Virus record (IMG/VR): IMGVR_UViG_3300045988_122718
Location: 32,001-96,000 of that record
Strand: one strand, 5' to 3'
Source of the DNA: a virus
Length of the DNA: 64,000 nucleotides
In this document: piece by piece, positions 21,383-55,298 of the stretch
Layout of the letters: every line of letters starts with the position of its first letter
Numbering within the stretch: position 1 is the first letter of the stretch
The notes under the pieces: model-generated
The model's input: only the letters and a program-made list of their open reading frames with translations
What the model was told of the DNA's origin: nothing
Database searches by the model: none
Translations under genes and position numbers: made by a program

Positions 21383-21431
21383 CGACTAAGGTCGGTTTAT
21401 ATAAAATTTTATTTACATGGAGGAGTTATTT

Positions 21432-21989
21432 ATGAAGATTAAGGAATTTTTAGATGTAGTTAATGCTAACAAAGCAAAATTGTACAACAAAGCAAACAAA
21501 AATGCTTTGTCTGATTTTATTAAACAAACATTGAATGTAAAAGAATATTTACCAATTATAGATAAGCATCATCTTGCCAAGAGAGTTATTGATGCTTGCA
21601 CATTTGAAGAGAATGGAGTAATCAAGGTTGATTCATTCCAGAAGTATTTCTTATTTACCATTAATGTGCTACAGATGTATACGGATTTAGAGTTTGATGT
21701 AGAGGGAGATATTTATGGTGAATATGATGAACTTTGTGCATGTGGTTTGTTAGATGAAATTCTTGGAACATTTAACGAGGATTATGAACGTGCAAATACG
21801 GTGTTAAATATGATTTATGCAGACATGATTGAAAACAATAATAGTATTGCAAATCTTATAGGAAGCGCAATGAGTAGCGTGTCTGCTAGTGCAGATAATT
21901 TAATTCATAGTCTTTCTGAAAAAATTTCAGAAATGAATACTGATATTAGCAATGAAGATATTGTTAAGTTACAAAATTTCCTGAAGTGA
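21432..21989 (+). CDS. hypothetical protein (in the position of a tail assembly chaperone)
   Basis: GGAGGAG is followed by ATG at 21432. The track ATG at 21417 overlaps the RBS itself. The gene sits upstream of the tape measure gene. Confidence 0.5.
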   Translation: MKIKEFLDVVNANKAKLYNKANKNALSDFIKQTLNVKEYLPIIDKHHLAKRVIDACTFEENGVIKVDSFQKYFLFTINVLQMYTDLEFDVEGDIYGEYDELCACGLLDEILGTFNEDYERANTVLNMIYADMIENNNSIANLIGSAMSSVSASADNLIHSLSEKISEMNTDISNEDIVKLQNFLK

Positions 21990-22000
21990 GGTGATTGTGT

Positions 22001-22495
22001 ATGGATGCAGCTATAAAAAAACTCATCGATCAAATGCGAAAAGACACTCAGGAAAATATTCGTAGGATTATGAGAGAAGCGGCGCAACAAGCCAGAAAAG
22101 ATTTTGAAAAAGAAGCAAAACATTACATTGATAAATATTATTCTGAATGTGATCCATGGCCAGATTACAAAAGAACGTACACGCTTCGTGATTATGGTTA
22201 CAGTCCATACACATTATGGAACAAAAATAAAGTGCAAGCGGGAGTGCGTTTTACCGATAGAAATGCAGATTTCTCGTCTAGATATGGAAGAGATATTGAC
22301 CCCGATAATGGTTGGGGAACTGGAATCGGCGGAATTGTTATGAGTAATCTTATTGTTGGTTCACATGGACGACCAGAATTAAGTGGAACTGTTAAGGGGG
22401 ATCCTATTGGAGAAAGAATGGAAGATTTTGAAAGATTGTATGCATATAAAATGGATGCATATTTTACTTCACAGGGTCTTACTAGAATAATTTGA
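22001..22495 (+). CDS. hypothetical protein (in the position of a tail assembly chaperone)
   Basis: GAGGTGA is followed by ATG at 22001. It lies immediately upstream of the tape measure gene. I saw no slippery heptamer. Confidence 0.5.
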   Translation: MDAAIKKLIDQMRKDTQENIRRIMREAAQQARKDFEKEAKHYIDKYYSECDPWPDYKRTYTLRDYGYSPYTLWNKNKVQAGVRFTDRNADFSSRYGRDIDPDNGWGTGIGGIVMSNLIVGSHGRPELSGTVKGDPIGERMEDFERLYAYKMDAYFTSQGLTRII

Positions 22496-22506
22496 GGTGA
22501 TATATT

Positions 22507-25500
22507 ATGGGTAAAAGAGGTCCTAGCGCACAGTATGCATATGGAATTACCATTGAAGCTGGTAATTATAACGAAGTAATAAATGGCTTTGAAAAAAGAT
22601 TAAAAAATTTAGATAAGGTTACGGCTACTACAACTAAGACTTTTGCGGCTTTAAGTGAAGCAATGAAGTCTGGTAAGCAGGTTGATTTTAGTAAGGCAGA
22701 AGGTCAACTTACTGGTCTTGTTGCAGAAATGGAAGAAGTCGCTAAGTGGAGAGAACAGTTGGCCGGTGGGCAGAAGCTAAGTGATATGTTTGATGGACTT
22801 GACCAAGTAAAACAGGGTTTAGGACAAATCACAAGTCAAATGGATAAGTTTGGCGATAATATTGAGGAAATTTTTAGTATTCTACAAAATGTTCCTCAGA
22901 ATACATCTAAGACATTTGTTGATGTAAGAAAAGTTCTTCAAAAACAAGCTTCTGAAATGAATGCAATCATTAAGGAACTTAATAACCCAACTGAAAAAAC
23001 AGATATTTCTGGATTGAAGAAACAATTATCTAGTCTTGCTACAGATTTTGTAAATGAGTGGAACAAGGCTGCATCTCAAGGTGTTAAGATGGATCAAGTG
23101 GTCGATTTTAAGCCATTTGCAAATATAATAAAAACGGCTATAAATGGTGCAAGAAGCCTTGGCACCGAGTTTAATGATGTTTCAGCGTCTGTAACAGAAG
23201 CTACGAAAAATGTTGTTGCATTATATAATGTCAAACACCCTACTGGTATGTTTAAAGATTTAACTTCTGGATTATCTAGTGTTGAATCACAAGCAAAAAG
23301 GACTGAACAAGCCGCTAGTAAGGCTGTTGCATCTTTTAAGGCTACCATTGGCATTGTTGATAAACTTAATAAGTCTGATATGGGTCTTTCGAAGAATAGT
23401 AAAGAAATGGAAGAGTTTTTGGCAAAACTTCAGAATCCAGAGATTACTGTTAAAATTAATAAGAAAGATCCAGATAATGTTATTGATACATTTTATGCAT
23501 TACAAGATAAAGTTGACGAACTTGCTGGAGGAAGCGTTCTCAATCTCACACAAGATTTTTTTAAAGATATCCCAGTTGAAAAGCTAAAAGAATTGGGCGA
23601 CGCTTTGCAAAATATTATTGCAATAGGAAATCATAAAGATTATAAAAAGATACTTAATTTTGGTGATGATGTATTTGGTACAGGTCATTTTAGTGGCCAA
23701 ATAAAAGGATATTCATCAGATTTAGAACAAGTTATGACAGAACTTGAATCAAGATTGAATGAAGCCAAACAATCTGTCCAAGATTTATCAAATACCCTAC
23801 AACAAATGGTTGAAAAAGCAGGCTTAAAGGAAATAAAGGTTGAGCTTGGAATAAAAGACGATATTAATTATTATGTTGAAAAGATTAATAGTGTCATTAC
23901 TGATATAGAAAAACAGGCCAATAGAATAAAAAAGATTCCTGTAACATTAGCATTTGATGATAAAAAAGACGATAAAAATAAAGAAAACGCAGAAGCATTA
24001 AAAAATAAGTTGACCGATCTTAAGGAGGCAATACATAAATCAAGAACCGAAATTGAAGGGGATTTAAGAGGCATTAAGGAAGCCGTAAATGGAATTTTTA
24101 AATCAAGTTCTAATTCTGCTGCAGAAAACTTATTTAATAGTATTCAAAATTACTTTGATGTTTCTGATGGTATAGATGTTTATATTAATGATGAAGCCTT
24201 AATTAAGAAGATCGAAGACGTTTTAACTGGTCATCAATTTAATATAAATATCAATCCAAATGTTAATGGCAATACAATTCCAATAAATGGAAGCTTTGTT
24301 GGGGTTGGAGGCAAAAGTGGCAATAGTTCAGTCGCACCCGTTGTTCCTGTTGCTCAAACTTCTGAATCTCAAGCTTTACAAGAAAAAGCGCTTAAACATA
24401 CTGCGGAGTCAAGTGAAAAAGCAGCAGAACATAATGATACAACATCTTTATACATCGAAAAGGCATCTGGAGAATTCCTAAAATTTATTCAGAGTTTTAA
24501 TAGATCGTTTAATACTGCAAATAAAAAATTGACAGATGCAAACGTTACGATAGCCAATGGCGGTCAAGTTGATGAAAGAAGACTTAGGTCTATGACCACT
24601 AGAGTATCCAATCTTTCTCCAATGTATGAGTATTTGTCTAAATTATTTAATCAAACAGATTTAGCCAAAATTTCAAAAAACGATATCAAAAATATAATTA
24701 CAGAACTTATTAAGAAAAATGAAGGTAAATCTGGTTTCAAAGGAGAAACATTTTTAGATGATATTTTAAGTCAGGGTAAGATTGGCAAGAGTCTTACTGC
24801 AAAATTAACAACATTTGCTGGCAAAGATAAAACCGTTGATATGCTTTTTAAATCACTTGGCCTAGAATCAATAGATAAAGTTATTGCCGGACGTAGAGAT
24901 GATTTATCAAAGGATAATGGACAGAATCTGCTAAAATATTATCAAAAATACGGAAAAATTGGAGACCTAGTAGACCAAATTGTTGGATTTATGTATGCAG
25001 ATAAAAAATCTGGAATGGATAAGGTTGATATAGATTCGACTGTTGGTTCTCTCGAAGACTCTTTGAAGAAATTAAAGGATGCATTTCCTGATATTAGTTC
25101 AAAAGCAAAGACAAAAGAACAAAAAATATCAGTAAAAACAATAGAAGAAACGATTGATAGTTTAACTACTTTAATAGGTGATTATAAATCAACATTATCT
25201 GAAACTGGTGGAATTCCAAGTGAAGAAAATATTTATACACATATACAAAATGGGTTTTCCAGATTATTTGAAACTATTTCTAATGATGAAAAGGATTCTA
25301 TTATAAAATCCTTTTATGGGAAAGATCCAACAAAAGATGCAATTAAGTCTGAATATATTTCATCTCTCAAGGATGTTATTCAAACAGTTTCTGGAAATGA
25401 TGAAACTGCAGGAGTAGTAAATGTTTTAACATCGTGGCTAGATAGGCTTGATTTAAGAAACCAGGTTTTAATTTCTGTAGAAGATTTACAAAAACAATTG

Positions 25501-28500
25501 ATTAATTCAAAAGTTTCTAGAAGTATAGATGGAAGAAGAGAAGTTTCTGTACGAAGCCTAGTTAATGATGTTCTTAAACAATTAGATGCAGATATTGTAT
25601 ATGAAACAAAGAATGGCACAGAAAAAACAGAAAGCGTTCATTATGGTCTTGGAAGAGGAAATAGTTCTAGAAAAAAGAGAGATTTGTTAAACAAGGTTAC
25701 GAGTGATGGTATTTATATATCTCATAAAACTCAATTTTATGATAAAAATAACAAGAGACCAACTCAGGCACAATCTCGTGTCGATTTAAATGGTTTAACT
25801 AAAAATAGCAATATAGATTGGGAAAAAAGAATAGCAGAATCTGAGAAAGTTATTCAAGAAAAAACGAAAGCACTTGAAGAAGCTAAAAAAGTTAGAGATG
25901 AAAAGTTGGCGGACATAGCAAAGAGAGAAGAGTCTGTAGGTACTACTCTTGACAAGGCTCAAAAAGAATTAGAAGCTGCAAAAGCCAATTTAGATGAAGT
26001 TACATATTCTGCATCAAGCCTAGTAGATTCTAGTGCAATTTCTTCTTTAAATGAAGAATATAAGAAGCAGACAAAAATATATGATTCTATGAAGAATTAT
26101 GCACAGAAAAATATTGCTTCTAGTGATTTAATGAAAGATAAAGACATCTCATTAGAGTTTAAAACTTTAATGAGCCAAAAAGAACAAATTATCCAAAGAA
26201 TGTCTCTTATAAAAAAAGAGGTATTTTCTTTTAAAACAATTGAGGAGATGTCTCCTGAAAGATTAGATGCTGTTATATCTCAAAACGAACAAGAAGAAGC
26301 TAAACTTAATGATGAAATTTCAAGAATTAGCAATGAGTTATCTGAAATATCTAATGCAGATAAAGAATCTTTAATTAAATCATTAAATAGTCAGATTGAG
26401 CAAAAGAAACAAGAAAGAAAAATATATGCAGATAGACTAAAAGATTTGAAAAATGCATCTGATAATGGAGATACTGAAGCACAAAAAGAGTCCGAGGATT
26501 TGAAAAAAAAGATATCTGCATTAAATGAACAAATTAATAGTTTATCAAATAAATCGGATATTGTGAACAAAAATGGTTCACCTTTAAAACAGGCATTGTC
26601 TGAGAAACAAAAAGAACTTAATATCATACAAGGGTATTTAAAGAAACAAAGAGAAGTAAGAAAAAAAGGAAAAGTTTCTTCTGATTTGGAATCACGATAT
26701 AAAGAAGAAGAACAAAATTTACAGAATGTAACAACAGAAATTAATACATTAATTGATAAACAAGCAGATGAAATTAATTCTATTTCCATAAATAAAATGA
26801 AGGAGATTGCTTCTCAGTATAAAAAAATTAAGAAGACATTGCCAGGTTTAAACAAAGAACTTAAAAAGCAAAAAAAAGGAACTATTGAATATGATAAAAT
26901 ATGGGAGCAAATTAACTCAATAAAGACATATATGAATTCAATGTTTGATGAATTTGAAAGCATTGGAAGACAAATCGGTCTTGACGATGATAGTATGCAC
27001 TCAATATTTTCTAGCTCTAAAAAATCTTATTTCAAGAAACAAAAAGTAGGCACGTCTATTACAGAAAAATATAAAGAAGAAATAAGAAAGAAGAAACAGG
27101 ATTATGGCTTCGCAAGTAGTGATAAAAAATCCTTAGAAGAAGAAAGAACTGAAGCAGAAAAAATAATTGCCGTAATAGAAAGAGAAATTAAGGCGGAAAA
27201 AAGAAGAAAAGAACTAGCACAAGCTAATATAGAATATACAAAGAAAAAAGCCGAAGAATATGATATTATACAAGAAATTTCTAAATTAGAAAACAATCCG
27301 GCTTCTGTTGATTTGTTAAATCAGAAAAGACAAGAATTATCTGTCATCGGAGAAGAATTAAAAAATATACAGCTTAAGATTATAGATCTTGGTGGGTCTA
27401 AACCAATTGGGGCGCTTGACGATACTCTTGCACCGGAACAGAAAAAAGTAGAAGTATTAAAAACGATTAAGATTCTTCAAGAAAAAATAATAAATAATCA
27501 GGCAAGAATAGATAGTGCAGAACAATCTATTAAAACTACTAAGGCATTAACGGTTGATAAAAATAATGGCGGTATTGTTAGTTTATCAGGAAGAAGAACA
27601 GCAAAAACCCAAGAGATAATGAGTGGGTTTATAGGAGCTTATACTGCGACAGATGATTATAAGAGTAAGGTTGCTGCAGAAAGAGATAAATTTGAAAGTA
27701 GTCTTTCCAATGTATATAGAACTATGTCTTCTAATATTGCTAAGAAACTTACTTCTCTTATTGAAGAGAATATGGGAAGTGTTGTTGAAAAGAAATATGG
27801 AGAAAATGGAGTAAAAGCTCATAAACAATCTTTTGATTTAGCAATGCAGAATCTAGTCGAGAAAACAGAAGAAAGACTGTCAAAAAGAATTAATAAAATA
27901 TATGATGAATATTTTGAATATGTTGCGAGTATAGAGTCTTCTGATTTATCAGAGACAGATAAGAAAAAAAAGATAGATATAGCAACTGCAGAAATGAAGT
28001 CGAAAACAAGTGCAGATTCGCAAAAAAGAACATTTAATGAGATTTTTAACAATGAGGCTTCTAAATTTTTGGATAATTACTATAAATATTTATCTTGGCT
28101 TATTGAACAAACAACAGGGGAAAGTATTGATGTTAAAAGTTTAAGAAAAGAGCAAGGTAATATAAAGAGTTCTGACATAACAAAAATATATGACCAATAT
28201 TCCGCCGAAGCTGAATCCACGAGAGCAAATTTAGAAAAAAAACAAAAAGAAAATATAGATGCAATTTTAAGAGATTATATTAAATCTATTAAAAAAGTAG
28301 AGCCTATATTAGATGGCATTAATCCAGATTTACCTGATGATATTATATTTGAAGATGCTATTGGAAATCGTGTTAATGTAACTAAAAACGAGAGAAATCG
28401 TAATGAGTCTGCTAAACAAAGGATTAAGGCTTTAAAGGGAGAAAATGCTTCATACATAAAGAAAATCCAAGATTGGATGTCACAATATGATATTTCTGAT

Positions 28501-31500
28501 TTAGAATTAGAAATGATAGATGATGCTATTAAACTCGCTATGGATCCAACAGATAAAAATTTACAAATCCTTTTTGGCAAATTTGATCCGAATAAAGTTG
28601 ACACTACTCCAATTGAAGAAGCTACTACAAGTATTGCCAATCAGACTATACAAGCAGCGGCTGAAACTGCTAAGAAGGCTGCTGATAGTAAACTTTCTGC
28701 AACAATAAATGCCACATCTATAGAACAATCCAAAGAAAAACAGACTGTTGTTGACAATAACACACTTCAAATAGAACAACAAGTTACTGCTGAAAAGCAA
28801 AAGCAAACAGCAGAAGAAGTTAAGCAGACTGCTGAACAACAGAAACAAGTAGAATTAAGTAATGCAGAAAGGCTAAAACTCGCTAAAAAGGAACTTCAAA
28901 AACGTTTGGATGCTGCTAAGAGTATACAAGATGGCACAACGTTAAAAAGCAATAAAGTTATTGTTACGCATTCTGATGAATCAAAAAAAGGTGTAAAGTA
29001 CTCATTAGACGAAAATATTGAATCAATAGATGAATTTGCCGAAGGAGTATGGAAACTGACAGAGGCGTTTAAGGCTGGAACAGACGCTGCAAATATTGAA
29101 TATGGTTTTGCGACACAAAATGGTAAGCGTATTCAGTTGGCAAAAGGCGATAATGATTCTGTAGACTTTACAAGATTCCATGGAGATATTGATTCTTTAA
29201 CTCACTCACATTCGTACACTAAAGGTGTAAACAATATGGTCTTCTCATTGGCGGATATTGACCAATTAGAGACATTGGGTACTAGAAATAATCTAAAAAA
29301 ATATAATTTGATTTACGACAATGAAATGATGTCGTTAAATCTTGGCAAAAACAGCCAAGAAGCAGCAGAAGCTATTGCAGATTGTTATCCACAAATTAAT
29401 GATGTTGTAATGGCTATGCTATCAAGGGCCGATGGTAATAGTATCCCCGCTGAAAATACAGAAGAAATGGCTCGTATACTTAATGGGTATATACAAAGAG
29501 TCCTTGAGGATGCTGGCGGTCGTTTATCGGTTGTTAATTCCAAAGGTGAAAATGTCACTTCTAAATATTCTATTACCGATGATGAGTATAACAAATTTAA
29601 TAATGTTCTTGCCAAATTCCAGAGTTATTATGACAATAATTTTGGTTCAGTCAGTAAATCTGATTATGTATCAGTAATTAGACAGTATTTGTCAGAAGAG
29701 TTCGGTAAAGAATTCATGGCAAATATTACAAGTAAGAGCAATGCTAATCCTCATGGTGGACTTTATACAGAATTTTCAGCAATTCCAGAATACGACGATG
29801 AAGACAAAAAGATGCTAGACTATGCAGAACAAGTTACTTTATATAGTAAAAAAATTGTTGCTGCAGAAAAGGCTTTTGTTGAATCTCTTCAAAAGATGTC
29901 CAACGAAGACCTTATGTCATTCATTAATCAAGCCGAGGAAACACTTGGAGTAAAGAAGGAGCCAGAAGTTAAGCCTACTTTAACTAAGGCACAAATTGCT
30001 GCTTTAAATCCAGATGATACTTCTGTTTTACAAAAGTCTGTCATTAAACAATTTTCAAAGGCACGTAATTGGAACGAGAATAATGTTGGAAATATTGAGG
30101 AGAAGTTAGGAGCAGACAACAAAGCTCTGATTGCATATAAGACGCAATTTGAAGAATTAGCAAAAATTGCTCTTGACCTAAAGACAAAGGGTGAAGCTGG
30201 TACTATCATAACCAAGGATGATATTTCTCAGTTAGATGAGGCTATTGCTAAGACTAAAGAATTACAATCCGAACTTACAAAAGAAGCTCAATTTAAACAG
30301 ATGAAAGATGCTGGTTTGATTGTAAGTGGTAAAACAAAAATAAAGTCTACTGATAGCTACAGCGAACGCAAAGACATAATGTCTCAATATGCCAAAAAGT
30401 ATGCTACTCAAAATAAGAGTGAATATCAATTTGATCAATACGATTTTATTAATGATAAGATATTCTTTAACATGATTGATAGTGCGGGCCAGGTAACTAA
30501 AGTTATTATGGGCTGGAGTGAAGCATTTAATTCTGCATATATTCAATCTTCAAAGCTGCAAGGTTCTTTAGATAAAATTACACAAGAGGTTTACAAGACA
30601 GATGAGGCAATTAAAGCAGGAGAAGAATATGGTTTCTTCCAAGAACAAAGTGAAGGAGTAAAAGCTTACAAAGATGCTTTAGCAGAATACGAAGCACAAG
30701 TAAAAGCTGTTGCTAAGAGTTCCCAAAAAGATTTAGCACAAAACTTTGAAGCGTTACATACGGCACAAGAAAAAGTAATAAATGCTGGTAAGGATTTATT
30801 AGACAAACAAAAGGATGCCTACGGATTCAATAACGCTCAGAAGGTCATTGGTAGAACTGGAGATGTCGATGCTGTTTTGCAGAATTATAGAGATCAAGGC
30901 ATAAATGTTAATGACATTGAACTTGTTCGTAATTATAACGATGCAATGGGCGATTTAAACAAAAAAATTGAAGAACTGAAGAAAAACGGTAAACTTTGGG
31001 ATGCCAATGAACAACCTGGACTAAAGCTTTTAGCTGATCGTGCTATCGAAGCAGAAAAAGCACTATTAAAAGCAGATGAAGCACAAAGACAGTTAAACGG
31101 AGAAGTAATTAAAGGAAAAAATGCAAAATTCTTTGAGGGCATTGATCCTAATAATGTAGATCAAGTAAAACAGGCAATGGAGCAATATGCTAGGTCTATT
31201 AATGGTGTAGATGCTCAAAGTATTAAATGGAGTGAAGACCAAAAGACTCTTTCTTATAGTGTTAGAACTGGTAAACGCGAAGTTTCTGACTTTACAATTG
31301 GAGTAAAAGAACTTACAAATGAGTTCTATGAGGCAAGAACTGGTACTAGGGCTGTTAAAACAGGAATGGAAGAATTCCTTGGTAGTATTGGTGACAAGTT
31401 CAAAGAAGTTGGTCGTTATCTATTATCCTTCGGTAGTTTTTATCGTGTATGGGGTGAAATTCAAAAGGGTGTAACTTATGTTAGAGAGATAGATTCTGCT

Positions 31501-31642
31501 TTAACGGAACTGAAGAAAGTTACTGATGAGACCGATGCAACATATGCACAATTTTTAAAAACAATGTCTAAAACCGGTGCCGAGGTTGGAGCCACAGTGA
31601 AAGATTTAACAAATATGGCTGCAAACTGGGCGCGCCTAGGGT
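22507..31642 (+). CDS. tail tape measure protein, exon 1 (giant coiled-coil N-terminal part)
   Basis: RBS GAGGTGA lies upstream. About 3045 codons are K/E/Q-rich and coiled-coil-like. The exon ends in ...EVGATVKDLTNMAANWARLG, which is the start of the TP901-family TMP core motif. The proposed 5' splice site follows U31642. The unspliced frame stops 13 codons later at 31680. Confidence 0.7.
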
Positions 31643-32862
31643 CGATTATAAAATCAGCCCCTTTATGTGGTAACACATAAATGAAAAGTTGGCTTTTATC
31701 GGGAAATCCCCAGAGATGGGCAATTCCGAGGACAAGACTAAATATTTAAATTATATTTTACAATACAAAATTAATGAAAGGAGGAATATTAATTGACTAA
31801 TGAAGAAATAATTGAGAAACAATTTGGACGATGGAGTGTATTAGATGTTGTTCCAAAATATAAAAACAATAAAACATATTGTAAATGTCAATGTTCATGT
31901 GATAAACATACAATAAAATTTGTTTATAAAAACTCATTATTAAAAGGCGAATCTCAATCGTGTGGATGTTTAAGCAAAGAACTAGCACAGAAGCGCTATA
32001 GGTCTAATATAGTTGGCGATAGGTTTGGAAATCTTGTTGTTAAAGAAATGTTATATAACTATAGGAATGGAAAAACATATTGTTTATGCGATTGTGATTG
32101 TGGCAAAGAACATATTTGTTCCTTATCTAATTTATCTACTGGTCATACGACTTCATGTGGTTGCATGAAATCTGAAAAAAATTGGAATGGTAGACGTACA
32201 AATTTAGTGGGGAATAGATTTGGTATGTTAGTTGTTGATGAGATGTTGTATGGATATATAAACAAGCAAACATGTTGTAAATGTACTTGTGATTGTGGGA
32301 ATACATCAATTGTATATATGAGTAATTTGTTGCAAGGCTTTACTCATTCATGCGGATGTAGCGAACATAATTCTGTTGGAGAGCAATTAATTAAAAGTAT
32401 ATTGGATAAAAATGAAATTAAATATATTTATAATTATAGGTTTGATGATTGTAGAAATGTTCTTCCACTTCCATTTGACTTTTATCTTCATGAATATAAT
32501 ACTTGTATAGAATATGATGGTATTCAACATTTTGAGCCAATTGAATATTTTGGTGGAGAATATGCACTTCAACAACGACAAATGAATGATAATATTAAAA
32601 CACAGTATTGTATTGATAATGATATCAAATTAATACGATTGCCATATACATTGTCAGAAGATGAAATAATAAATATAATTTTAAATATTTGGAATCCGTA
32701 ACGAGTAAGTGTTTTATATGGTGACATATAATTCCACGCCAACCACCCTATTATATAGGGTGATGATGTACTCTGTTCTGCACATATAATCTAAAAATGA
32801 AAGTGCAGAGGCAAGGAGAAATCACTTGCCCCTTTTACTTTATGTAAAAGAGTAACAAATAG
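31643..32862 (+). mobile_element. putative group I intron (1220 nt) interrupting the tape measure gene
   Basis: - Splice sites: the exon ends in U and the intron ends in G32862.
- P1-like pairing: GGGU (31639-42) with GCCC (31656-59).
- P2-like: 8-bp hairpin with a GUAA loop (31662-31681).
- P3-like: long-range pairing GUUGGC (31688-93) with GCCAAC (32738-43).
- P4/P5-like: CGGGA (31700-04) pairs with UUCCG (31724-28) around a GAGA-capped hairpin (31709-20).
- 3' hairpins at 32744-62, 32810-30 and 32832-50.
- Joining restores ...ARLG-Y-SIEEAGELAKSTAVLLNV in frame.
- P7 could not be assigned by eye. Confidence 0.62.
31793..32701 (+). CDS. intron-encoded homing endonuclease candidate: three zinc-ribbon repeats plus a PD-(D/E)XK (Vsr/DUF559-like) nuclease domain
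   Basis: AAAGGAGGA lies 7 nt upstream of TTG at 31793. There are three about 50-aa repeats (G.RFG.L.V.......K..C.C.CDCG.......S.L..G...SCGC). The C-terminus has LPFDFYL...CIEYDGIQHF...DNIKTQYC...IKLIRLPY, typical of Vsr-like endonucleases. Confidence 0.65.
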   Translation: MTNEEIIEKQFGRWSVLDVVPKYKNNKTYCKCQCSCDKHTIKFVYKNSLLKGESQSCGCLSKELAQKRYRSNIVGDRFGNLVVKEMLYNYRNGKTYCLCDCDCGKEHICSLSNLSTGHTTSCGCMKSEKNWNGRRTNLVGNRFGMLVVDEMLYGYINKQTCCKCTCDCGNTSIVYMSNLLQGFTHSCGCSEHNSVGEQLIKSILDKNEIKYIYNYRFDDCRNVLPLPFDFYLHEYNTCIEYDGIQHFEPIEYFGGEYALQQRQMNDNIKTQYCIDNDIKLIRLPYTLSEDEIINIILNIWNP

Positions 32863-35800
32863 ATAGTATTGAAGAGGCCGGTGAACTCGCTAAGAGTACA
32901 GCGGTCTTGCTGAATGTTTCAGAATTCGAGAGTGCTGATGAAGCGTCAGAAGCGTTAATCAGTACCATGCAAGCTTATGGATACGCTGCAGAAGATAGTA
33001 TGCATGTTGTTGATATACTTAACGAAATAGGAAACAATTTTGCGATTTCTAGTGACGGATTGGCAACAGCTCTACAAGATTCAGCAAGTTCCTTAATGGC
33101 TGCGGGGAATTCGTTAGAACAAAGTGTAGCAATGGTAGCAGCTGCCAACAAAGTGCTTCAGGATCCTAATTCCGTAGGAAGTGCGTTGCGTACAATTTCG
33201 CTAAGAATTAGAGGAACTAGCGTAAAAGTTTTAGAAGAAATGGGTGAGGAAACTGATGGCGTTATCGAGAGCGTCAGTAAACTCCAAGCCAAAGTCAAAG
33301 GTCTAAGTGGAGTCGATATCCTAACCGACACTGGTGCTTATAAAGATACATACACAATTATCAAAGAAATTGGTCAAGTATGGGAGCAAATGAACGACAT
33401 TGACCGTGCTGCGTTACTTGAGTTGTTAGCAGGTAAGAATCGTTCGAATGCAATGGCAGCCCTACTAACTAACATGGAAGACCTTGAGGGTGCATACGAA
33501 AGTGCAATGGAAGCACAAGGTTCAGCAGAGGCCGAGAACAAAAAGTACATGAATAGTATTCAAGGTAGAATTGATCAATTTACTAATGCTTTGCAAACTA
33601 TGTGGAAAAATGCAATTGATTCTAATTTTGTAAAGTTTATTGTTAGTGTAGGTACTGGATTAGTAAAAGTTGTTAATTGGCTCGGAATGATACCAACCAT
33701 ACTTGGCACAATAGCCGGAGCTATGTCTGCAATTAAAGGACAGAATCTTTTTGTTAACTTAACTGGAAATGGAAAGTCTGGGATTATAACTGAGTTAATT
33801 CAAAAGGTTAAAGAAGGCATACCCGCTATAAGAGAATTTAATTCAATTCAAGGCGTAGATAATCAAGCCAAATTTTTAAATAGTTTAAAAGAAACTAATC
33901 CCGAACTTTCAAATTATATTACAAAGGTTATGTCGGCCTCTGCTGTAACAACCGAAAATGGAGTTGCTACAAATATAGCAAGTGTATCTCAAAAGAGATA
34001 TATAGGAAGTTTAGTTGCAGCGAAAGTGGCTTCAATAGGGTTAAAGGTTGCAACAGTTGCACTAAATGCCGCACTAACAATTGGCATTAGTTTATTGATT
34101 TCTGGAGCTATATCCGCTATATCTAAAGTAATCAATGGTGTTAAAGAGGCAAAAGAAGAAACAAAGAGGTTGACAGAAGAATTGAAGCAGCAACAAGCCG
34201 AAATAAAATCTAATATTTCTTCGTTGGAGTCATTAAAAGATGAATTTGATAAATTATCAAAGGGTGTAGACGAGTATGGCAATAATATTTCTTTGTCAAC
34301 AGAAGAATATGCAAAGTATAAATCAATAGTTGAGCAAATATTTGGGTATACTCCTACTTTAATTAGTGGATATGATAAAGAAGGAAATGCTATTGCTAAT
34401 AAAAATAGCCTCATTGAAAAATCTATAGAGCTACTAAAGGAAGAAAGAAAACAAAAGCTTTTAGAACTTGTTACAGATGATAAGCTTAAGGTGGCGTATG
34501 ACTCAGCAAAGGAAAATCATGATAAGGCAAAAAAAAAGCTTAAAAATGTAAATGTCCCATCTACATTAGCATATAGCGGTGTTAAGATTGATGATAATGG
34601 CAAAGAACATAGTGGATATGTAAATCAAATTGATAAGTATATTGAAGATGTAATTGGCGTAGAAAAAAGTGTGTGGGAGTCTCTTACTGAATATATAGCT
34701 AGAAATTCTGATGCCGTAAGAAAGAATATAGGGAAGATTATTGAGCGCTCTGGCCAAACAAAAGATGGATGGAAGGGTTTGAACGATAAACAACAAGCAG
34801 AACTTTTAAACTATTTGAACAATGTTTTATCTGGTGTGAGAGAAACAGATGCTGCGTGGGATAGTTTTATTCAGACATTGCAGCTTGTTCCACAAATATC
34901 TACTTATTATGATAAATTATCAGATTCACAGAAGAGCTTCATATCATCCTATATTAATGGGCTTGGTGATTTGAGTAATAAAACAGAAGCAGAAATTAAT
35001 AATATAAAAACCAGTATTTTATCTTTAACAAATGCAATCGGAAGTGACAAAGAGGCACAGTCTTTAATTGACCAATTATTTTCTATTGATTCAAATCTTT
35101 CTGCAAAAGAATATTCTGACAAAATATCTGAAATTTTTAATAAGCTTGTTGAAAAAGGAATAATTTCAAACGACAACAAACAAAAGTTTATAGAACAACT
35201 GTTCCCAGATTTGAAAGATATCGAAACTATGCAAGAAGATGTCAAAAAGAAAATAAAAGATGATCAACAAGATTTAGTAAATAGCTTAAATGTTCAAGAT
35301 TTAAAAATTGCATATTCAATAGATGCCAGTGATCTTTCATTTGATGAATTAAAGAAAAAAATTCAAGAAGTAAAAGTTGCTACTATTGGCGATTTTGATA
35401 TTTCTAACTATTCTGATTCAATTTCGAGTCTAAGTGAAAATATTGGTGTTCTCCAAGCCGCCCTTGAAAAATTGAATAGTGGCTCGTTTACTATGGACGA
35501 TTATGTCAAACTAATTAAGGACTTCCCAAAACTTGCAAAAGGTGTTGATGTTAGTTCTAAGAGTTTCAAGGGGTTAACTTCTAATCTAGTAAGAGCAATA
35601 AAGGCATCCCCAAAGAGCATGGTTAAGGACTTAAAAGCGTTAAAGTTACAATTAATGCAAACTGGTAGGTCTACTTCTGATATTGACCAGCTTATTTATT
35701 CCTTGGAACATATGCCAGAAAATGCTCTTGATAGTATGATTACCAAATATGCTACACTTGCAGATAATATAACTGAAGCTACTGAGGCTCAAAATGAACT

Positions 35801-38800
35801 AAAAGCCGCTATGGAAGAAAATCCAAATGAGGGATTTGAAACACGTGGCGAAGCTATGGATTATATGAAAGAGGCTATGAGTCGTGGAGAAATTGGTAGT
35901 GAATCTAACCTTTGGAATGTCGCAGAAAAATATGGATTTACTTTTGATTCTGCAAAATCAATAAATGAAAATGCTGATGCATTAGCTAAGTTCATTGCAA
36001 CACGTGAAAAGTGGTTTAAGCAGGATGATGATGGTAATTATACATATGAAGGAACAGAGGACTTCATCAAAAAAGTAGATGCGGCTGTTGCTTCTATGCC
36101 AGAGCTTCAAGAACTTATGAAGTGGGATTATAACGAAAGTACTGGGGTTCTTGATTTTGACTTTAAGAATAAAGATTGGGATCAAATTGTTAAGTATTTA
36201 AGTACATGTGAAGGCTTAATCGGATTGACATCTGATGAATGGGCGGACATGCTAGTTCAGGTCGGTCAGTATTTTAATATTGATTGGTCAAATTATAATG
36301 ATGAATTAGAATACTTAAAGAAAATAACAACTGAAGATATGGATAATAAGACCAAAGTAGAAAAATATGGTTCTGCTATGCAGGAATATTTTGGCAAGGA
36401 TTCTTCTATAGACTTGGCTAATCGCCCAATGATTAGCAGTTCAAAGATGAATACAAAGGGATGGGATATAGAAGACGGTAGTTATGCAACTGTACTTTCT
36501 AGTGCTTATTCTAATGAAGGGGGAACTGTTGCCATAACTGTAACACCAATTCTTCCAGATGGAGAAGTTTTAACAGAGGATGAACTAACAAAATATGCTA
36601 CAGAAATTGTAAACGGCGCAGACCCAGTAACATATGAATTCGAAGTCAATGGTAAGACTTATACTGGAGAAGACATTATTCTAGCAAAGCATAATGGTAA
36701 GAACCCAATAGAGGAAGCAAAAGAATATGGTAAAGCACTGCATGAAGCACAAGAAGAATATGATAAACTAAGAGACACTCTCAACATCAACACTACAATT
36801 GACGAAAAGGGTATTAATGGTCTATCTGAAATTAAAGAAATTCAAGGTGCAATCCAGAAGAATGCAGATGGTACTACTATAATTGACGAGCAGGCATTCA
36901 GAAAAGCACTAACGAGTGCCGAATACACAGAAGATCAAATTGATTTAATTATTGATAAAATTAAATACTTAAATAAAGAAGCTTTTGCTTCTGACACATT
37001 TAATATTGGCAAGATACTTGACAAAGAAACTGGCTCTGGAATTGATGGATTGTTAGAAATTAAGGAACTACAAGACGCAATTGAAAAAGATGCAAATACC
37101 GGGTTTACAGTTATTGATACGGACATGTTTACTTCTGTTCTTTCTGAGGCTGGATATACAAAAGCTCAAATTGATGAACTTATCCAAAAAATTCAAGAAT
37201 ATGAAAATGTTGTTTCTGTGGCTGGGAATACAGATCCACTTGGACTTAGTGGTGCAAATTTAAGTATTGATACATTAAAAGCATCTCTTAGTACTTTAGG
37301 TGTGTTTTTTGAAGACACTCTTGGTGACTGGTTTGATGGAAAAAGAGATCTTGTAATTAATGTTCCAAATTTAGTTTCTACACTTAAAGAAAAGGGTTGG
37401 TCTGAAGAAGCAATAAGAAGTTATTGTGAACAGCTATCTAAAGCCAACATTGAAGGATTCAATATTAAAGTCAATTCTCAAGAAATAGATGAAGCATTGG
37501 CAAAATCAGATGATGTTCCTGAAGAAAAAACGACAAACTATGAAGTAACCGGAAATGGTGCTACTACTCTTGATGGAATAGAAGATACATGGTCAAATGT
37601 TACAAAGGATAAAACAACGAATTATACCATTAATGAGACAACGGTAAAGAAAACTGTAGATGATAGTCCTAAGTGGTATAAACCATGGACCTGGTTTGCA
37701 GATGGAACTGCAAATGCTCAAGGGAATTGGGGTGCAGAACGAACAGAAACATCTCTTGTTGGTGAGTTAGGCCCAGAACTTCGTGTACGTGGAAGTCGTT
37801 GGGAAATGCTCGGTGAAAACGGGGCAGAATTTACTGATGTTAAAAAGGGCGATATTATATTCAACCATAAACAAACAGAAGAATTGTTGAAGAATGGGCA
37901 TATTACTGGTCGTGGTAAAGCGTATGCCAATGGAACAGCTTATGCTGCTGGTGACGGCACTTTTTCTAGATATAATTTTAGTGGCAATGGTGGATATACG
38001 AAGTACGATGTAAATAATAGCATAGTTGATTCGTTTGGTAATGCTGCTAGTTCAGTATCTGACGCTGCCGATGATATTTCTGATGCCGCTGATAAATTCG
38101 AAGAAGTATTCGACTGGTTTGAAGTTCTTCTAGAAGAAATCGAAGACAATATCAGCTTAATGAATGCCAAGCTAGAAAATGCAGTTGGTATAAGTGCAAA
38201 GAAAGGTATTTATTCTGAAATTCTAAATACAGAACAATTCAAGTTACAAGAATTATATGAGGGTGTCAAACTATATTCCGATTATGCCAATAAGCTTCTT
38301 GCTAAAGTTCCAGACCAGTATAAAGAAATGGCTAAAAATGGCGCGGTCGCTATCACAGACTTCCTTGGTGAAGCAAACGAAGAAGTTGTAGACTCAATTA
38401 ACAACTATCGTGAGTGGGCAAAGAAGGTATCCGACCTTAATCAGCAATTAGAAGAAACAAAGAAGACTATTGCCGATACTCATGTAGAAATACAGAATAT
38501 GCTTAAAGATGAATATGATAATCGTATATCTTTAATTACTTCTGTAAACGACCGTATACAAGATACAATAGACTTACTCGATGAAGAAGGCAAACGTTCT
38601 TCTGCTGTAATGTATGAAGAAATGATAAAAAATAGTACAAAACAATTATCAGAACTTCAAAGCAAACGTGCAGAAATGCAGAGAGCATTAGACGAAGCCG
38701 TGAGAAGCGGAGACGTAGCTAGAGAAAGCTCACAATGGTACGAGATGGTCAATGCAATCAATGATGTCGATAGTGAAATTAATGATTGTAGAATTGACCT

Positions 38801-40490
38801 TGAAAGTTTCCAAAACTCTATCAACCAGCTTCATTGGGATAACTTTGAAAAGTTCATTGATGCCATTGACAATGTTGGCAACGAAATTTCCAATCTAGGA
38901 GACCTAATCGACGAAGAAGACATTGTTGATGAAGTCGGTAATTGGACAGATAAAGGTATCACTGCACTTGGTTTGTATGCTCAAGAGATGGAACGTGCCA
39001 AATACAGAGCAGAACAGTATGGCAAAGAGATTGAGTATCTAAACCAAGAATATGCCGCTGGAAAGTATAGCGAAGATGAATATCTTGAGAAACTACAAGA
39101 ATTACGAGACGGCCAATGGGATAGCATTAAATCTTATGAGGCTGCAAAAAAGGCTATTGTTGATTTAAATAAAACTCGTATTGAGGCTATAAAAAATGGT
39201 ATTCAGAAAGAAATAGACGCTTATTCGGAACTTATTGACAAGAAGAAGGAAGAACTTAGCTTACAGAAAGAGTCACATGACTTCCAGAAGCAAGTAGCTG
39301 AACAGCAAAAAAATATTGCAAATATTCAAAAACAATTGGCTGCAATGGCCGGAGATAATTCTGCGTCTGCAATTGCTAGGAAAAAACAATTAGAAGCAGA
39401 ACTTGCCGCAGCACAAGAAGAACTCGATGAACTATATTATAATCATAGTGTTGAGAAGCAGCAAGAAGCACTTGATAAATCCTTAGAGAATTATCAGGAC
39501 AATAAGCAAGACGAAATGGACGCTCTTGACGAGTCTCTCAAGAACGAAGAACAAATCATTGCCGATAGTTATGCCACTATTACGGCAAATACGGAATCTG
39601 TAGCACAAACATTATCTGATATAGCAAGTCAGTATGGGATTACCCTATCTGATTCTGTTATGCAGCCTTGGCTAGATGGTGCTAACGCCATTGGTACTTA
39701 TCAAGAGCAGTTAGACACCTCTATGAGTTCTTTCACTCAGCAACTAGAGGCTCTTAAGCAGATGTATGCCGACTTACAAAATCAGGCTGATAGTGCTGGT
39801 AAGAGTATGGTTGATGCGATAAATGGTAGCAAGTCTAAAACAGAAGGTGCAACATATACGCCACCAATTCCATCACAACCAAGTACCCCATCAAAGCCAT
39901 CAAAACCATCTGCTCCATCTACTGGTTCGTCCGTTACAGTGAAAAAATCTGCAACACGCTTTTCAAGAGATGGTGGTAATGGTACTAGAATGCAGTCATG
40001 GGTCCCTGGTTCAACATTTACTGTTTATCAGGTTAGTGGTTCAGAAGTTCTAATTGGAAGAAATGGTCAATATACTGGATGGGTGCGTCTATCTGATATT
40101 GAAGGATATGCAAAGGGTACTAAAGAAATTCAAAATAACCAATTAGCAATGCTAGACGAACTTGGAGACGAGTTGGTTTTACATGCCGGTAAGAATGGCA
40201 GGTTAGAATATCTAACTAAGGGTACATCTGTTGTTCCAGCAGATATTACAAGCAACTTAATGAAGCTTGGCTCCTTAGACCCGAAGGATATTCTTGAAAG
40301 AAATAGACCTTCTATTGGTGCTCCACATGTTATTGATAATAGTATAGAGTTAAAAATGGAATTTGGCAGTCTTGTACATGTTGATACTGTTTCAAACGAT
40401 ACATTGCCATACTTGCAAAAGATGGTCAGAAATGAGTTTGATAATTGCATGAAACACGTAAATCAAGGGCTAAAGAAATTTGTTCGTTAA
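32863..40490 (+). CDS. tail tape measure protein, exon 2 (TMP core, TM segments, coiled coils, SH3b-like domain)
   Basis: The frame is open from 32856. It contains the canonical TP901-type core (LLNVSEFESADEASEALISTMQAYGYAAEDSMHVVDILNEIGNNFAISSDGLATALQDSASSL...ALRTISLRIRG) and hydrophobic segments. Conserved GELGPELRVRG...G and DELGDELVLHAG motifs are present. A Pro/Ser linker precedes an SH3b-like VTVKKSATRFSRDGG...GWVRLSDIEGY. Confidence 0.8.
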
Positions 40491-41662: not shown

Positions 41663-41676
41663 GGAGGTGGCATAAA

Positions 41677-49104: not shown

Positions 49105-49138
49105 GCAAAAATAGAAAGAGTGGTTGAAACCACTCTTT
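49105..49138 (-). terminator. terminator after the integrase gene
   Basis: On the minus strand: AAAGAGTGGTT, loop, AACCACTCTTT, followed by CTATTTTT. The stem overlaps the integrase stop codon. Confidence 0.6.
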
Positions 49139-50279: not shown

Positions 50280-50342
50280 AATAACCACTCCTTTAACAAT
50301 ACAAAATTAATTGTACTACTATTATAATTTATGTTAACTGAT

Positions 50343-55230: not shown

Positions 55231-55298
55231 AGGCATCTCTCCTTATCTAAATAACTTTTTATATCTACTAAGAACGGACACTTGCCGTACTTTTCGAG

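What the first reader, a model, noticed from the sequence alone, without database searches (positions are those of the whole stretch)
22507..40490. Tape measure protein of about 5587 aa once the interruption is removed
**What the sequence shows**
- ORFs 22507..31680 (3057 aa) and 32907..40490 (2527 aa) look like two halves of one gene.
- The first ends in ...TNMAANWARLG. The second frame, open from 32856, continues ...SIEEAGELAKSTAVLLNVSEFESADEASEALISTMQAYGY.
- Together these form the contiguous conserved core of TP901-type tape measure proteins.
- Joining 31642 to 32863 is in frame (16764 nt, 5587 codons plus stop).

**Why it matters**
- TMP length scales with tail length at about 0.15 nm per residue. 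A fully extended protein of this size would imply a tail of several hundred nm, far beyond typical siphoviruses.
- Alternatively, much of the K/E-rich N-terminal 3000 aa has a function other than length measurement, such as an ejected effector or scaffold.
Basis: partly seen in the sequence, partly recalled or inferred. Interest (0 to 1): 0.85.

Follow-up and report, generated by a model that had tools for sequence, protein, structure and literature searches.

The report
Giant tape-measure gene split by intron
The two huge reading frames are one phage tail tape-measure gene of 5,587 codons, longer than the 5,002-residue P23-45 protein that was the largest I found described, interrupted by a mobile self-splicing group I intron that carries its own homing endonuclease.

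Summary
ORFs 22507..31680 and 32907..40490 are two exons of one tape measure protein (TMP) gene. Joining 31642 to 32863 gives 16,764 nt (5,587 aa).

- **One gene.** Both TMP core models (PF10145, TIGR01760) cross the junction only after the join. Natural uninterrupted relatives read ...NWARLGYSI(E/Q)EAGEL... straight through it.
- **The interruption.** The 1,220-nt insert (31643..32862) is a group I intron. The 5' exon ends in U, paired to G in P1. The insert ends in G and has a P3/P7 pseudoknot and a P4-P6 domain. Helices covary across five lineages (18 of 26 pairs change on both sides; 0 of 500 shuffles match). A homolog in another phage's TMP gene matches Rfam RF00028 (E = 1.8e-4, below gathering). 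A 302-aa EDxHD-like homing endonuclease sits in the P6 loop.
- **Already known.** Introns in TMP genes (B. cereus-group prophages) and giant TMPs (P23-45 gp96: 5,002 aa, 800 nm tail).
- **New here.** An uncultured phage family (contigs up to about 170 kb) with TMPs of 5,272 to about 6,371 aa. The roughly 3,000-aa N-terminal extension looks mostly helical and contains one orphan JAB/MPN-like domain. There are at least 10 interruption sites, the 8 inspected holding an insert with an endonuclease-like ORF.
- **Not shown.** Splicing, and a tail of about 0.85-0.9 µm, are inferred.

The parts
22507..31642 (+). TMP exon 1 (aa 1-3045 plus the first base of Tyr3046)
   Evidence: ORF. All relatives start with the same N-terminus and run through this region.
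31643..32862 (+). Group I intron, 1,220 nt, with an extra hairpin (P7.1) between P7 and P3'
   Evidence: Boundaries fixed by the intron-less allele L003. The 5' exon ends in U and the intron ends in G. ORF-deleted fold z = -6.3. Covariation. Homolog hit by RF00028.
31639..31660 (+). P1: exon GGGU (31639-42) paired with internal guide GCCC (31657-60), G·U at the splice site; inner stem GAUU/AAUC
   Evidence: P1 covaries with the exon sequence at other insertion sites.
31663..31754 (+). 5' ribozyme half: P2 (31663-69/31674-80, GUAA loop), P3 5' strand (31688-93), P4 (31699-703/31725-29), P5 (31709-12/31717-20, GAGA loop), P6 5' strand (31730-32), P6a 5' strand (31740-54)
   Evidence: The exon 1 read-through stop TAA (31678-80) lies in the P2 3' strand.
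31793..32701 (+). Homing endonuclease ORF, 302 aa, TTG start 8 nt after AGGAGG; three Cys-rich repeats followed by a Vsr-like EDxHD-type nuclease domain
   Evidence: PHROG homing and intron-encoded nuclease families. DNA match to an annotated 'homing endonuclease EDxHD'. 557 phage records match. E197/D229/H246/D266, with the D-to-H spacing of 17 as in I-Bth0305I.
32675..32862 (+). 3' ribozyme half: P6a/P6 3' strands (32675-90, 32695-97), P7 5' strand GAGUA (32703-07), P7.1 (32709-37, GUGA loop), P3 3' strand (32738-43), P8 (32744-62), P7 3' strand UACUC (32769-73), P9 (32777-809), P9.1 (32810-30), P9.2 (32832-50), terminal G at 32862
   Evidence: Alignment to the Rfam-matched MaeS intron.
32863..40490 (+). 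TMP exon 2 (aa 3046-5587 plus stop)
   Evidence: 94% identical to the C-terminal half of the uninterrupted P0085.
31462..33683 (+). TP901-type TMP core domain (spliced aa ~2986-3319), split by the intron
   Evidence: TIGR01760 115.5 bits and PF10145 85.6 bits, both crossing the junction.
28954..29946 (+). Family-specific conserved block (aa 2150-2480) holding a compact alpha/beta domain, possibly JAB/MPN-like, with invariant E2198, H2233, H2235, S2247, D2250
   Evidence: Only 7 cluster representatives in 1.84 billion proteins, all TMPs of at least 3,124 aa and six of them clear family members. AF2 pLDDT 79, pTM 0.74. Foldseek.
33636..34145 (+). The only strongly hydrophobic segments (aa 3304-3323 and 3428-3473), just after the TMP core
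   Evidence: Hydropathy scan.
21417..22495 (+). Two small ORFs (190 and 166 aa) directly upstream, in the position of tail assembly chaperones; conserved in all relatives' loci
   Evidence: No family hit.
40559..46569 (+). Downstream tail genes: DUF6558 phage tail protein (Dit position, 40559-41662) and a 1,630-aa minor tail protein (41677-46569)
   Evidence: Pfam DUF6558 and DUF6558_C above cut-off. phrog_6211 minor tail protein.

Best explanation
This is a single tail tape measure gene of a large uncultured siphovirus-type phage, probably of a low-G+C Gram-positive host. It is interrupted in codon 3046, inside the conserved TP901-type core, by a mobile group I intron. The intron RNA pairs its guide GCCC with the exon end GGGU. 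It then folds into the P3/P7 pseudoknotted core and removes itself, giving an mRNA for a 5,587-aa protein. The 302-aa endonuclease in the P6 loop cuts intron-less alleles, so the intron is copied into them (homing). The exon 1 read-through stop lies in P2, which keeps ribosomes out of the ribozyme core. The protein sits in the tail lumen and sets tail length. At the P23-45 ratio (5,002 aa for 800 nm) that predicts about 0.85-0.9 µm. Shown here: gene continuity, intron boundaries, RNA structure with covariation, and homology to a group I intron. Inferred: splicing, endonuclease activity, ruler function of the whole length, and the tail size.
For: Continuity: domain hits cross the junction. Uninterrupted relatives P0001, P0028 and P0085 read ...ARLGYSI(E/Q)EAGEL.... 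114 phage TMPs are uninterrupted across it. Boundaries: alignment to the intron-less allele L003 leaves one in-frame solution, ending in U at the 5' splice site and G at the intron end. RNA: unconstrained folds give P1, P2, P3, P4/P5, P6 and P8, and P7 appears in the 3' half alone (z = -6.3). Homologous introns sit at other TMP sites in L008, L011 and L012 and in phage MaeS; the MaeS copy matches RF00028 at E = 1.8e-4. Covariation: 165 of 165 cells pair, and 20 of 33 positions are compensatory in hand-picked helices. On the blind MAFFT alignment 91.4% of cells pair, against 72.5% when shuffled and 29-39% when slid. There, 18 of 26 pairs change on both sides, against 9.0 expected (0 of 500 shuffles). 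Mobility: the same intron in L005 is 97% identical over 1,220 nt, while the flanking exons are 83-87% identical or unalignable. Endonuclease. TMP identity: gene order is two small ORFs, TMP, DUF6558 protein, minor tail protein. Hydrophobic segments follow the core. The first 1,000 aa are predicted all-helical. Precedents: TMP introns (PMC2504315); a giant TMP that defines an 800 nm tail (PMC10770324).
Against: No Rfam family matches the window's own intron even at E <= 1. The homolog's hit is below the gathering score (27.5 against 50 bits). No expression or splicing data exist. The endonuclease has no sequence-level match to any solved structure, and its N-terminal region has Cys-rich repeats rather than the NUMOD motifs of I-Bth0305I. 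The 3D model of the N-terminal 1,000 aa has low confidence (pLDDT 54), so only its secondary structure is usable. A folded domain of about 250 aa inside the protein argues against a purely extended ruler. No virion, host or tail measurement is available.
Confidence: 0.88

Rival explanations
1. The TMP is not a ruler along its whole length. The N-terminal ~3,000 aa, or part of it, is cargo or a processed module. One possibility is a JAB/MPN-type metalloprotease that is ejected into the host or that cleaves the TMP itself. In that case the tail is much shorter than 0.85 µm. This is compatible with the one-gene-plus-intron finding and rivals only the tail-length step.
For: A compact alpha/beta domain at aa ~2170-2420 is the best-conserved part of the N-terminal region. 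Its residues E...HxH...SxxD are invariant. The only PDB fold matches that align compactly and reach probability 0.5-0.75 are JAB1/MPN proteases (STAMBPL1 prob 0.75, AMSH); a glucokinase hit has a lower E-value but aligns poorly. Viral library hits include deubiquitinase, metalloprotease and RadC-JAB entries. Precedent: the N-terminus of P23-45 gp96 is a virion RNA polymerase (PMC10770324). In typical TP901-type TMPs the core lies near the N-terminus; here it starts about 3,000 aa in.
Against: No PDB fold match is significant (best E 0.02-0.3), and there is no Pfam hit. The H-to-D spacer is longer than in canonical JAMM. The first 1,000 aa are predicted entirely helical with many 20-45-residue helices, and aa 1000-2200 are charge-rich with little Gly/Pro, like TMP rulers. 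In P23-45 the tail is 800 nm even though its TMP includes an 800-aa enzyme. There is no DxDxD motif.
Confidence: 0.3
2. The insertion is not spliced. The endonuclease gene has split the TMP gene, and the two halves are made as separate polypeptides that assemble in trans.
For: Exon 1 has its own stop 12 codons into the insert. An in-frame TTG exists at 32907. Endonuclease-split phage genes are a known phenomenon (own knowledge).
Against: The break falls inside a conserved domain. TTG 32907 lies 15 codons past the junction within that domain, and it is CTA in the intron-less allele L003. The insert has a full, covarying group I core with P1 pairing to the exon end, and that core is more conserved than the exons. 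There would be no selection for this without splicing.
Confidence: 0.05
3. The gene is a decaying pseudogene in a defective prophage, and the interruption is simply disruptive.
For: An integrase lies nearby (49137-50288).
Against: Both exons are open for 3,045 and 2,542 codons in AT-rich DNA. They align end to end with uninterrupted relatives. Three independent contigs carry the same arrangement. Two scans of the 185,579 GTDB species-representative genomes found no prophage copy.
Confidence: 0.02

Closest known systems
Thermus phage P23-45 gp96 / P74-26 tape measure protein
   Same: A giant single-chain TMP (5,002 aa) that defines an ~800 nm to ~1 µm tail, the longest known. It carries transmembrane and enzymatic modules within the TMP (PMC10770324, PMC10034513).
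   Different: No detectable sequence relationship was seen. The window's protein is 585 aa longer, and relatives are up to ~1,370 aa longer. It has no DxDxD RNA polymerase motif. Its core is TP901-type (TIGR01760). The host is probably a mesophilic low-G+C Gram-positive, not Thermus. The gene is intron-interrupted.
Group I introns in TMP genes of Bacillus cereus-group prophages (TMP-IVS1/2/3; Tourasse & Kolstø 2008) and of L. delbrueckii phage JCL1032
   Same: IA-type group I introns inserted at several positions of a TMP gene. Related introns are retargeted to different sites through changes in P1 and the guide sequence. An early stop lies in P1/P2. Some carry endonuclease genes (PMC2504315).
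   Different: Those TMPs are just over 1,200 aa with three sites. This family has at least 10 interruption sites, 8 of them within ~125 codons of the core, and at least three intron types. The endonuclease here is EDxHD-like rather than GIY-YIG or HNH. No DNA similarity to cultured-phage introns was found apart from a 64-nt stretch in MaeS.
I-Bth0305I (EDxHD homing endonuclease, recA intron of Bacillus phage 0305phi8-36)
   Same: Intron-encoded in a phage group I intron, with a C-terminal Vsr-like nuclease domain. The E...D...x...H...D residues are present, and the Asp-to-His spacing of 17 residues is identical (PMC3239194).
   Different: No phmmer match to the solved structure 3R3P. The N-terminal DNA-binding part consists of three CxCxCxC...SCGC repeats instead of two NUMOD helix-turn-helix motifs. 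The ORF sits in P6 rather than P5.
SPβ YomI / Brevibacillus phage Sundance TMP
   Same: The closest cultured-phage TMP cores (25-32% identity across the junction). They are large TMPs (2,528 aa in Sundance) in large temperate siphoviruses, with the core preceded by an N-terminal extension.
   Different: Less than half the length. They lack the family-specific N-terminal 3,000 aa and the JAB-like block, and they are uninterrupted.

Membership tests
TP901-type phage tail tape measure protein (TIGR01760 / PF10145) | Core domain scores above the curated cut-off | tested here: met
   TIGR01760 115.5 bits (cut-off 28.8); PF10145 85.6 bits (cut-off 33.2). Both are on the spliced protein and cross the junction.
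TP901-type phage tail tape measure protein (TIGR01760 / PF10145) | Gene lies between tail-chaperone-position ORFs and the distal tail / tail-tip genes | tested here: met
   Two small ORFs lie upstream. A DUF6558 tail protein and a phrog_6211 minor tail protein lie downstream. The same order is seen in all relatives' loci.
TP901-type phage tail tape measure protein (TIGR01760 / PF10145) | Mostly helical protein with hydrophobic segments after the core | tested here: met
   Residues 1-1000 are predicted all-helical (low 3D confidence). The only hydrophobic segments are at aa 3304-3473.
TP901-type phage tail tape measure protein (TIGR01760 / PF10145) | Length of the protein sets the length of the tail | not testable with these tools
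   Needs electron microscopy of virions or deletion mutants.
Group I self-splicing intron | 5' exon ends in U paired with G in P1; intron ends in G | tested here: met
   Exon GGGU (31639-42) pairs with GCCC (31657-60). The terminal G is at 32862. The boundaries are forced by the intron-less allele.
Group I self-splicing intron | Conserved core: P3/P7 pseudoknot, P4-P6 domain and P8, supported by covariation | tested here: met
   P4, P5 and P7 are 100% paired. 18 of 26 pairs change on both sides, against 9.0 in shuffles (0 of 500) and 2-4 when slid. Helix table.
Group I self-splicing intron | Match to the Rfam model RF00028 at the gathering score | tested here: inconclusive
   No hit in the window at E <= 1, nor at gathering level. 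The homologous MaeS intron scores 27.5 bits, E = 1.8e-4, below the gathering score of 50. The 920-nt ORF splits the core.
Group I self-splicing intron | Self-splicing with guanosine cofactor | not testable with these tools
   Needs in vitro transcription and splicing, or RT-PCR.
EDxHD (Vsr-like) homing endonucleases | Composite active-site motif E, D, x, H, D in a C-terminal Vsr-like domain | tested here: met
   E197, D229, H246 and D266 are present. The D-to-H spacing of 17 matches I-Bth0305I D196 to H213. This was read from the sequence, not from a profile.
EDxHD (Vsr-like) homing endonucleases | Detectable homology to characterized members | tested here: inconclusive
   76.7% DNA identity over 179 nt to a gene annotated 'homing endonuclease EDxHD' in Klebsiella phage Muenster. 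PHROG homing and intron-encoded nuclease families match at E down to 6e-48. No phmmer hit to any PDB chain, including 3R3P, and no Pfam hit.
EDxHD (Vsr-like) homing endonucleases | N-terminal NUMOD DNA-binding repeats | tested here: not met
   The N-terminal region has three CxCxCxC...SCGC repeats at aa 30, 97 and 162. The related ORFs in relatives' introns carry only faint DUF723 marks in the precomputed Pfam annotation.
JAB1/MPN (JAMM) metalloproteases (for the aa 2170-2420 block) | E...HxH...SxxD metal site on an MPN fold | tested here: inconclusive
   Invariant E49, H84, H86, S98 and D101 of the block, but the spacer is longer than canonical. Foldseek gives MPN proteins as the only compact PDB hits, at E 0.1-0.3. 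There is no Pfam hit, and no significant PDB sequence hit (one chance-level match at E 0.2-0.4 in each search).
TMP-fused virion RNA polymerase (P23-45 gp96 type) | DxDxD metal-binding motif in a double-psi beta-barrel in the N-terminal part | tested here: not met
   There is no DxDxD anywhere in the 5,587 aa. No beta structure is predicted in aa 1-1000.

The most novel reading that the evidence does not exclude
These uncultured phages build the longest virus tails known, about 0.85 µm for this window and about 1 µm for relatives with ~6,371-aa TMPs. They would do so in a mesophilic Gram-positive host, and the same protein would thread a previously unknown JAB-type metalloprotease through the tail.
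Probability: 0.25. Interest if true: 0.75.

Novelty: new variant of a known kind. Interest (0 to 1): 0.55.

Why it matters
**Size.** The spliced product (5,587 aa) and its relatives (up to 5,652 aa uninterrupted, and about 6,371 aa spliced) exceed the 5,002-aa P23-45 TMP, the largest I found described. If the usual scaling holds, these phages match or beat the record ~0.8-1 µm tails. They would do so outside thermophiles. That offers a second, independent system for asking how very long tails are assembled and how DNA crosses them.

**Annotation.** Gene callers split these TMPs into two or three ORFs. In 46 of 50 sampled relatives the first TMP ORF ends before the C-terminus. Surveys of TMP length therefore miss them.

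**Intron biology.** One intron lineage occupies at least four different sites in this family's TMP core (five counting the copy in phage MaeS), with matching changes in P1 and its guide sequence. This is an unusually dense natural example of intron retargeting.

**New domain.** The family-specific JAB-like domain is a candidate new tail-delivered or self-processing enzyme.

Tried and rejected
- **Rfam on the intron** (E <= 1) and at gathering level on the window, L007 and L008: nothing. This is uninformative, because these loci hold at least four such inserts.
- **Exact-pattern scan of IMG/VR** for the P4-P5 core: 0 hits.
- **Two scans of GTDB species genomes** for prophage copies, one with a protein and one with an alignment: none confirmed. 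The host remains unknown.
- **megablast of 8 kb against cultured phages:** only the endonuclease fragment matched.
- **phmmer and profile search against PDB** for the conserved block and the endonuclease: nothing significant.
- **Pfam at E <= 1 on five segments of the N-terminal 3,045 aa:** only sub-threshold coiled-coil-type hits.
- **DxDxD and zincin motif searches:** none.
- **AF2 of aa 1-1000:** low confidence (pLDDT 54), so I used it for secondary structure only.
- **An alternative P7.** I first considered the R-element look-alike ACAAGACUAAAU (31733-44) as the P7 5' strand. I rejected it because the MaeS, L011 and L012 homologs place P7 at GAGUA/UACUC, with compensatory changes.
- **Splice sites of the other introns.** Exact sites for the MaeS and L011 introns could not be fixed without intron-less alleles.
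- **Group II intron, intein and assembly artefact:** rejected. There is no reverse transcriptase, the insert contains stops, and three independent contigs agree.


Full report
**1. The observation**

Exon 1 ends ...TNMAANWARLG and then reads 12 more codons to a TAA at 31678-80. The second frame is open from 32856, directly after a TAA, and reads QIDSIEEAGELAK.... Joining 31642 to 32863 gives 16,764 nt. That is 5,587 codons plus one stop, with junction ...ARLG-Y-SIEEAGEL.

**2. One gene**

- Pfam PF10145 on exon 2 alone begins at profile position 33 (65.3 bits), and exon 1 alone has no hit.
- On a 600-aa spliced fragment (junction at residue 250/251), PF10145 covers profile 3-201 over residues 224-441 (85.6 bits).
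- TIGR01760 covers residues 191-524 (115.5 bits).

A tblastn search of cultured phages found 114 records with one uninterrupted match across the junction. The best were Brevibacillus phage Sundance (TMP 2,528 aa) and Enterocloster phage PMBT24 (1,508 aa).

Searching the large protein collection with exon 1 returned 75 close relatives on contigs of up to about 170 kb.
- P0001 is 98% identical to exon 1 and reads ...NMAANWARLGYSIQEAGELAKSTAVLLNVSEF..., which is exactly the predicted T|AT Tyr codon.
- P0028 (5,272 aa) and P0085 (5,652 aa) are complete uninterrupted versions. P0085 is 94% identical to exon 2.

**3. The insert is a group I intron**

*Boundaries.* DNA alignment to the intron-less allele (L003) leaves one in-frame solution. 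Exon 1 ends ...CTAGGGT, and the 1,220-nt insert ends ...AAATAG. So the 5' exon ends in U and the intron ends in G.

*Folding.* Rfam finds nothing in the window. This is uninformative, because a 920-nt ORF splits the core. An unconstrained fold of the ORF-deleted element produces:
- P1 (exon GGGU with GCCC, G·U at the splice site);
- P2 with a GUAA loop;
- the long-range P3 (GUUGGC/GCCAAC);
- P4/P5 with a GAGA loop;
- a long P6/P6a that loops out the ORF;
- P8 and three 3' hairpins.

The fold has z = -6.3 against shuffles. P7 (GAGUA/UACUC) is pseudoknotted with P3. It forms when the 3' half is folded alone.

*Link to the family.* The one DNA match to the core was a 64-nt stretch in Microcystis phage MaeS. 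It led to a homologous intron that also interrupts a TMP core domain. Rfam's RF00028 matches that intron at E = 1.8e-4 (27.5 bits, below the gathering score of 50). Homologs of the same intron occupy other TMP sites in relatives L008, L011, L012 and L013.

*Covariation.*
- Across five lineages, every cell of P1, P3, P4, P5, P6, P7 and P9 pairs (165 of 165). 20 of 33 positions keep pairing through changes on both strands.
- MAFFT, blind to structure, put my P4, P5 and P7 strands in identical columns in all six sequences.
- On that alignment 91.4% of cells pair, against 72.5 ± 2.7% when shuffled and 29-39% when the partner is slid.
- 18 of 26 pairs change on both sides, against 9.0 ± 1.9 in shuffles; 0 of 500 shuffles reach this.

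*Retargeting.* P1 covaries with the exon sequence at each site: GGGU/GCCC here, GUGU/GCAC in L008, CGGU/GCCG in L012. This is the retargeting behaviour described for B. cereus prophage TMP introns (PMC2504315). The hairpin between P7 and P3' (P7.1, with a GNRA loop in four lineages) is, from my own knowledge, a subgroup IA trait.

**4. The endonuclease and mobility**

ORF 31793..32701 has an AGGAGG ribosome-binding site before its TTG start. It matches PHROG homing and intron-encoded nuclease families. It shares 76.7% DNA identity over 179 nt with a gene annotated 'homing endonuclease EDxHD'. It carries E197, D229, H246 and D266, with the same 17-residue Asp-to-His spacing as I-Bth0305I (PMC3239194).

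Its N-terminal part has three Cys-rich repeats rather than NUMOD motifs, and no solved structure matches by sequence. I therefore call it EDxHD-like.

The same intron sits at the same site in two other contigs. Against L005 it is 97% identical over 1,220 nt. The flanking exons are 83-87% identical, and further upstream they cannot be aligned. Synonymous differences from the intron-less allele cluster at the insertion site. Both observations fit homing with co-conversion.

**5. The protein**

Gene order marks it as the TMP: endolysin, RuvC-like gene, two small ORFs, this gene, DUF6558 tail protein, 1,630-aa minor tail protein.

The TP901 core starts about 2,986 residues in.

*The N-terminal 3,045 aa.*
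- No significant Pfam domain; only sub-threshold coiled-coil-type hits.
- Charge-rich and poor in Gly/Pro, especially aa 1000-2200.
- The first 1,000 aa are predicted entirely helical, with many helices of 20-45 residues. The 3D confidence is low, at pLDDT 54.
- No DxDxD motif, so this is not a P23-45-type fused RNA polymerase.

*The conserved block.* The exception is a block at aa 2150-2480. It is the best-conserved part of the N-terminal region. It is found only in giant TMPs: 7 cluster representatives among 1.84 billion proteins, six of them clear family members and the seventh a weak match. It is predicted with pLDDT 79 and pTM 0.74 as a compact alpha/beta domain.
- PDB fold matches are not significant. 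The only compact ones are JAB1/MPN proteases.
- The viral library gives significant matches to uncharacterized phage proteins. Weaker matches are to deubiquitinase, metalloprotease and RadC-JAB entries.
- The invariant E...HxH...SxxD residues resemble a JAMM site with a longer spacer.

This is a lead, not an assignment.

**6. Size in context**

P23-45 gp96 is described as a 'giant 5,002-residue' TMP that defines an 800 nm tail. [quoted passage not shown]

| Family member | TMP length | State |
|---|---|---|
| L004 / P0028 | 5,272 aa | uninterrupted |
| L007 | ~5,417 aa | three exons |
| This window | 5,587 aa | two exons |
| L003 | ~5,587 aa | two exons |
| P0085 | 5,652 aa | uninterrupted |
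| L008 | ~5,759 aa | two exons |
| L014 | ~6,371 aa | two exons |

At 0.15-0.16 nm per residue the window's protein predicts about 840-890 nm. This step is inference only.

**7. Comparison and verdict**

Already known:
- group I introns in TMP genes (PMC2504315);
- introns in other phage structural genes (PMC3706429);
- EDxHD endonucleases;
- giant TMPs with enzymatic modules.

Different here:
- the size;
- the ~3,000-aa extension placed before a TP901-type core;
- the orphan conserved domain;
- the density of intron sites. There are at least 10 positions. Eight lie between spliced residues 3044 and 3168, and two are near 4684 and 4714. Only 4 of 50 sampled relatives are uninterrupted, and there are at least three intron types.

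No cultured relative is close, and no prophage copy was found in GTDB species genomes. The host is inferred only loosely as a low-G+C Gram-positive, possibly from the gut. This rests on endolysin domains and distant tail-protein matches to phages from human faeces.

Noticed in passing
relatives' TMP genes, mapped on spliced aa 3044-3168, 4684 and 4714 (alignment A1; L003, L007, L008, L010-L014): The TMP gene of this family is an intron hot spot. The first TMP ORF stops at 10 or more positions, and all 8 positions whose DNA was inspected hold an insert with an endonuclease-like ORF. Only 4 of 50 sampled relatives are uninterrupted. L007 has two introns in the C-terminal part. At least three intron types occur: this one; a second in L003 and L007; and a third in L010, whose ribozyme core lies upstream of the endonuclease ORF.
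   Followed up: partly
L014 10001-22555 and 24391-30948: A relative's TMP is about 6,371 aa when spliced (4,185 + 2,186 aa), roughly 800 aa longer than the window's. The extra length lies in the N-terminal part.
   Followed up: partly
L009 (Microcystis phage MaeS, MT362618.1, record ~36200-37540): MaeS carries a homolog of this intron in its own TMP gene. The record annotates the two exons and the intron ORFs as separate hypothetical proteins. MaeS also shares a tail protein with the window. This link between a phage deposited as a cyanophage and a family whose other distant matches are phages of Gram-positive bacteria is unexplained.
   Followed up: partly
window 31628-31642 and 32863-32900, compared with L003 10800-10860: Synonymous differences from the 98%-identical intron-less allele cluster right at the insertion site (TGGGCGCGCCTAGGGTATAGTATT against TGGGCAAGGCTTGGTTACTCCATT). 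This looks like a co-conversion tract, or selection for P1 pairing and endonuclease immunity.
   Followed up: partly
window 51820-55236 (- strand): The ribonucleotide reductase large-subunit ORF is 1,138 aa. RNR homology starts only at residue ~458. The N-terminal part matches only PHROG families of unknown function, and a TSCPD domain follows the barrel. An insertion or fusion was not examined.
   Followed up: no
window 2636-9589 (+ strand): A second very large ORF (2,317 aa; phrog_14959, unknown function) lies upstream of the tail module.
   Followed up: no
L007 and L014 8062-8877: In two relatives a GIY-YIG/NUMOD endonuclease ORF lies between a 164-aa ORF in the position of the RuvC-like gene and the chaperone-position ORFs upstream of the TMP. 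The family carries several kinds of homing endonuclease.
   Followed up: no
L013 599-1711: An IS605 OrfB/TnpB (Cas12f-like) gene lies just upstream of the TMP module in one relative.
   Followed up: no
L004 2781-5570: A radical SAM enzyme next to a protein with Cxxx repeats (faint match to PF27846, tSAM_targ_Cxxx_rpt) lies within the structural region of a relative.
   Followed up: no
window 49137-50288 (- strand): A tyrosine integrase (phrog_1, E = 5e-71) sits at the switch from the + strand structural module to the - strand replication module, which suggests a temperate lifestyle. However, no prophage copy was found in 185,579 species-representative genomes.
   Followed up: partly
window 31793-32380 (endonuclease aa 1-195): The endonuclease's N-terminal region has three ~65-aa repeats, each with CxCxCxC...SCGC. 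This is probably a zinc-binding DNA-recognition module, different from the NUMOD motifs of I-Bth0305I. The 305- to 444-aa intron ORFs in L007, L008 and L010 carry faint DUF723 marks.
   Followed up: partly
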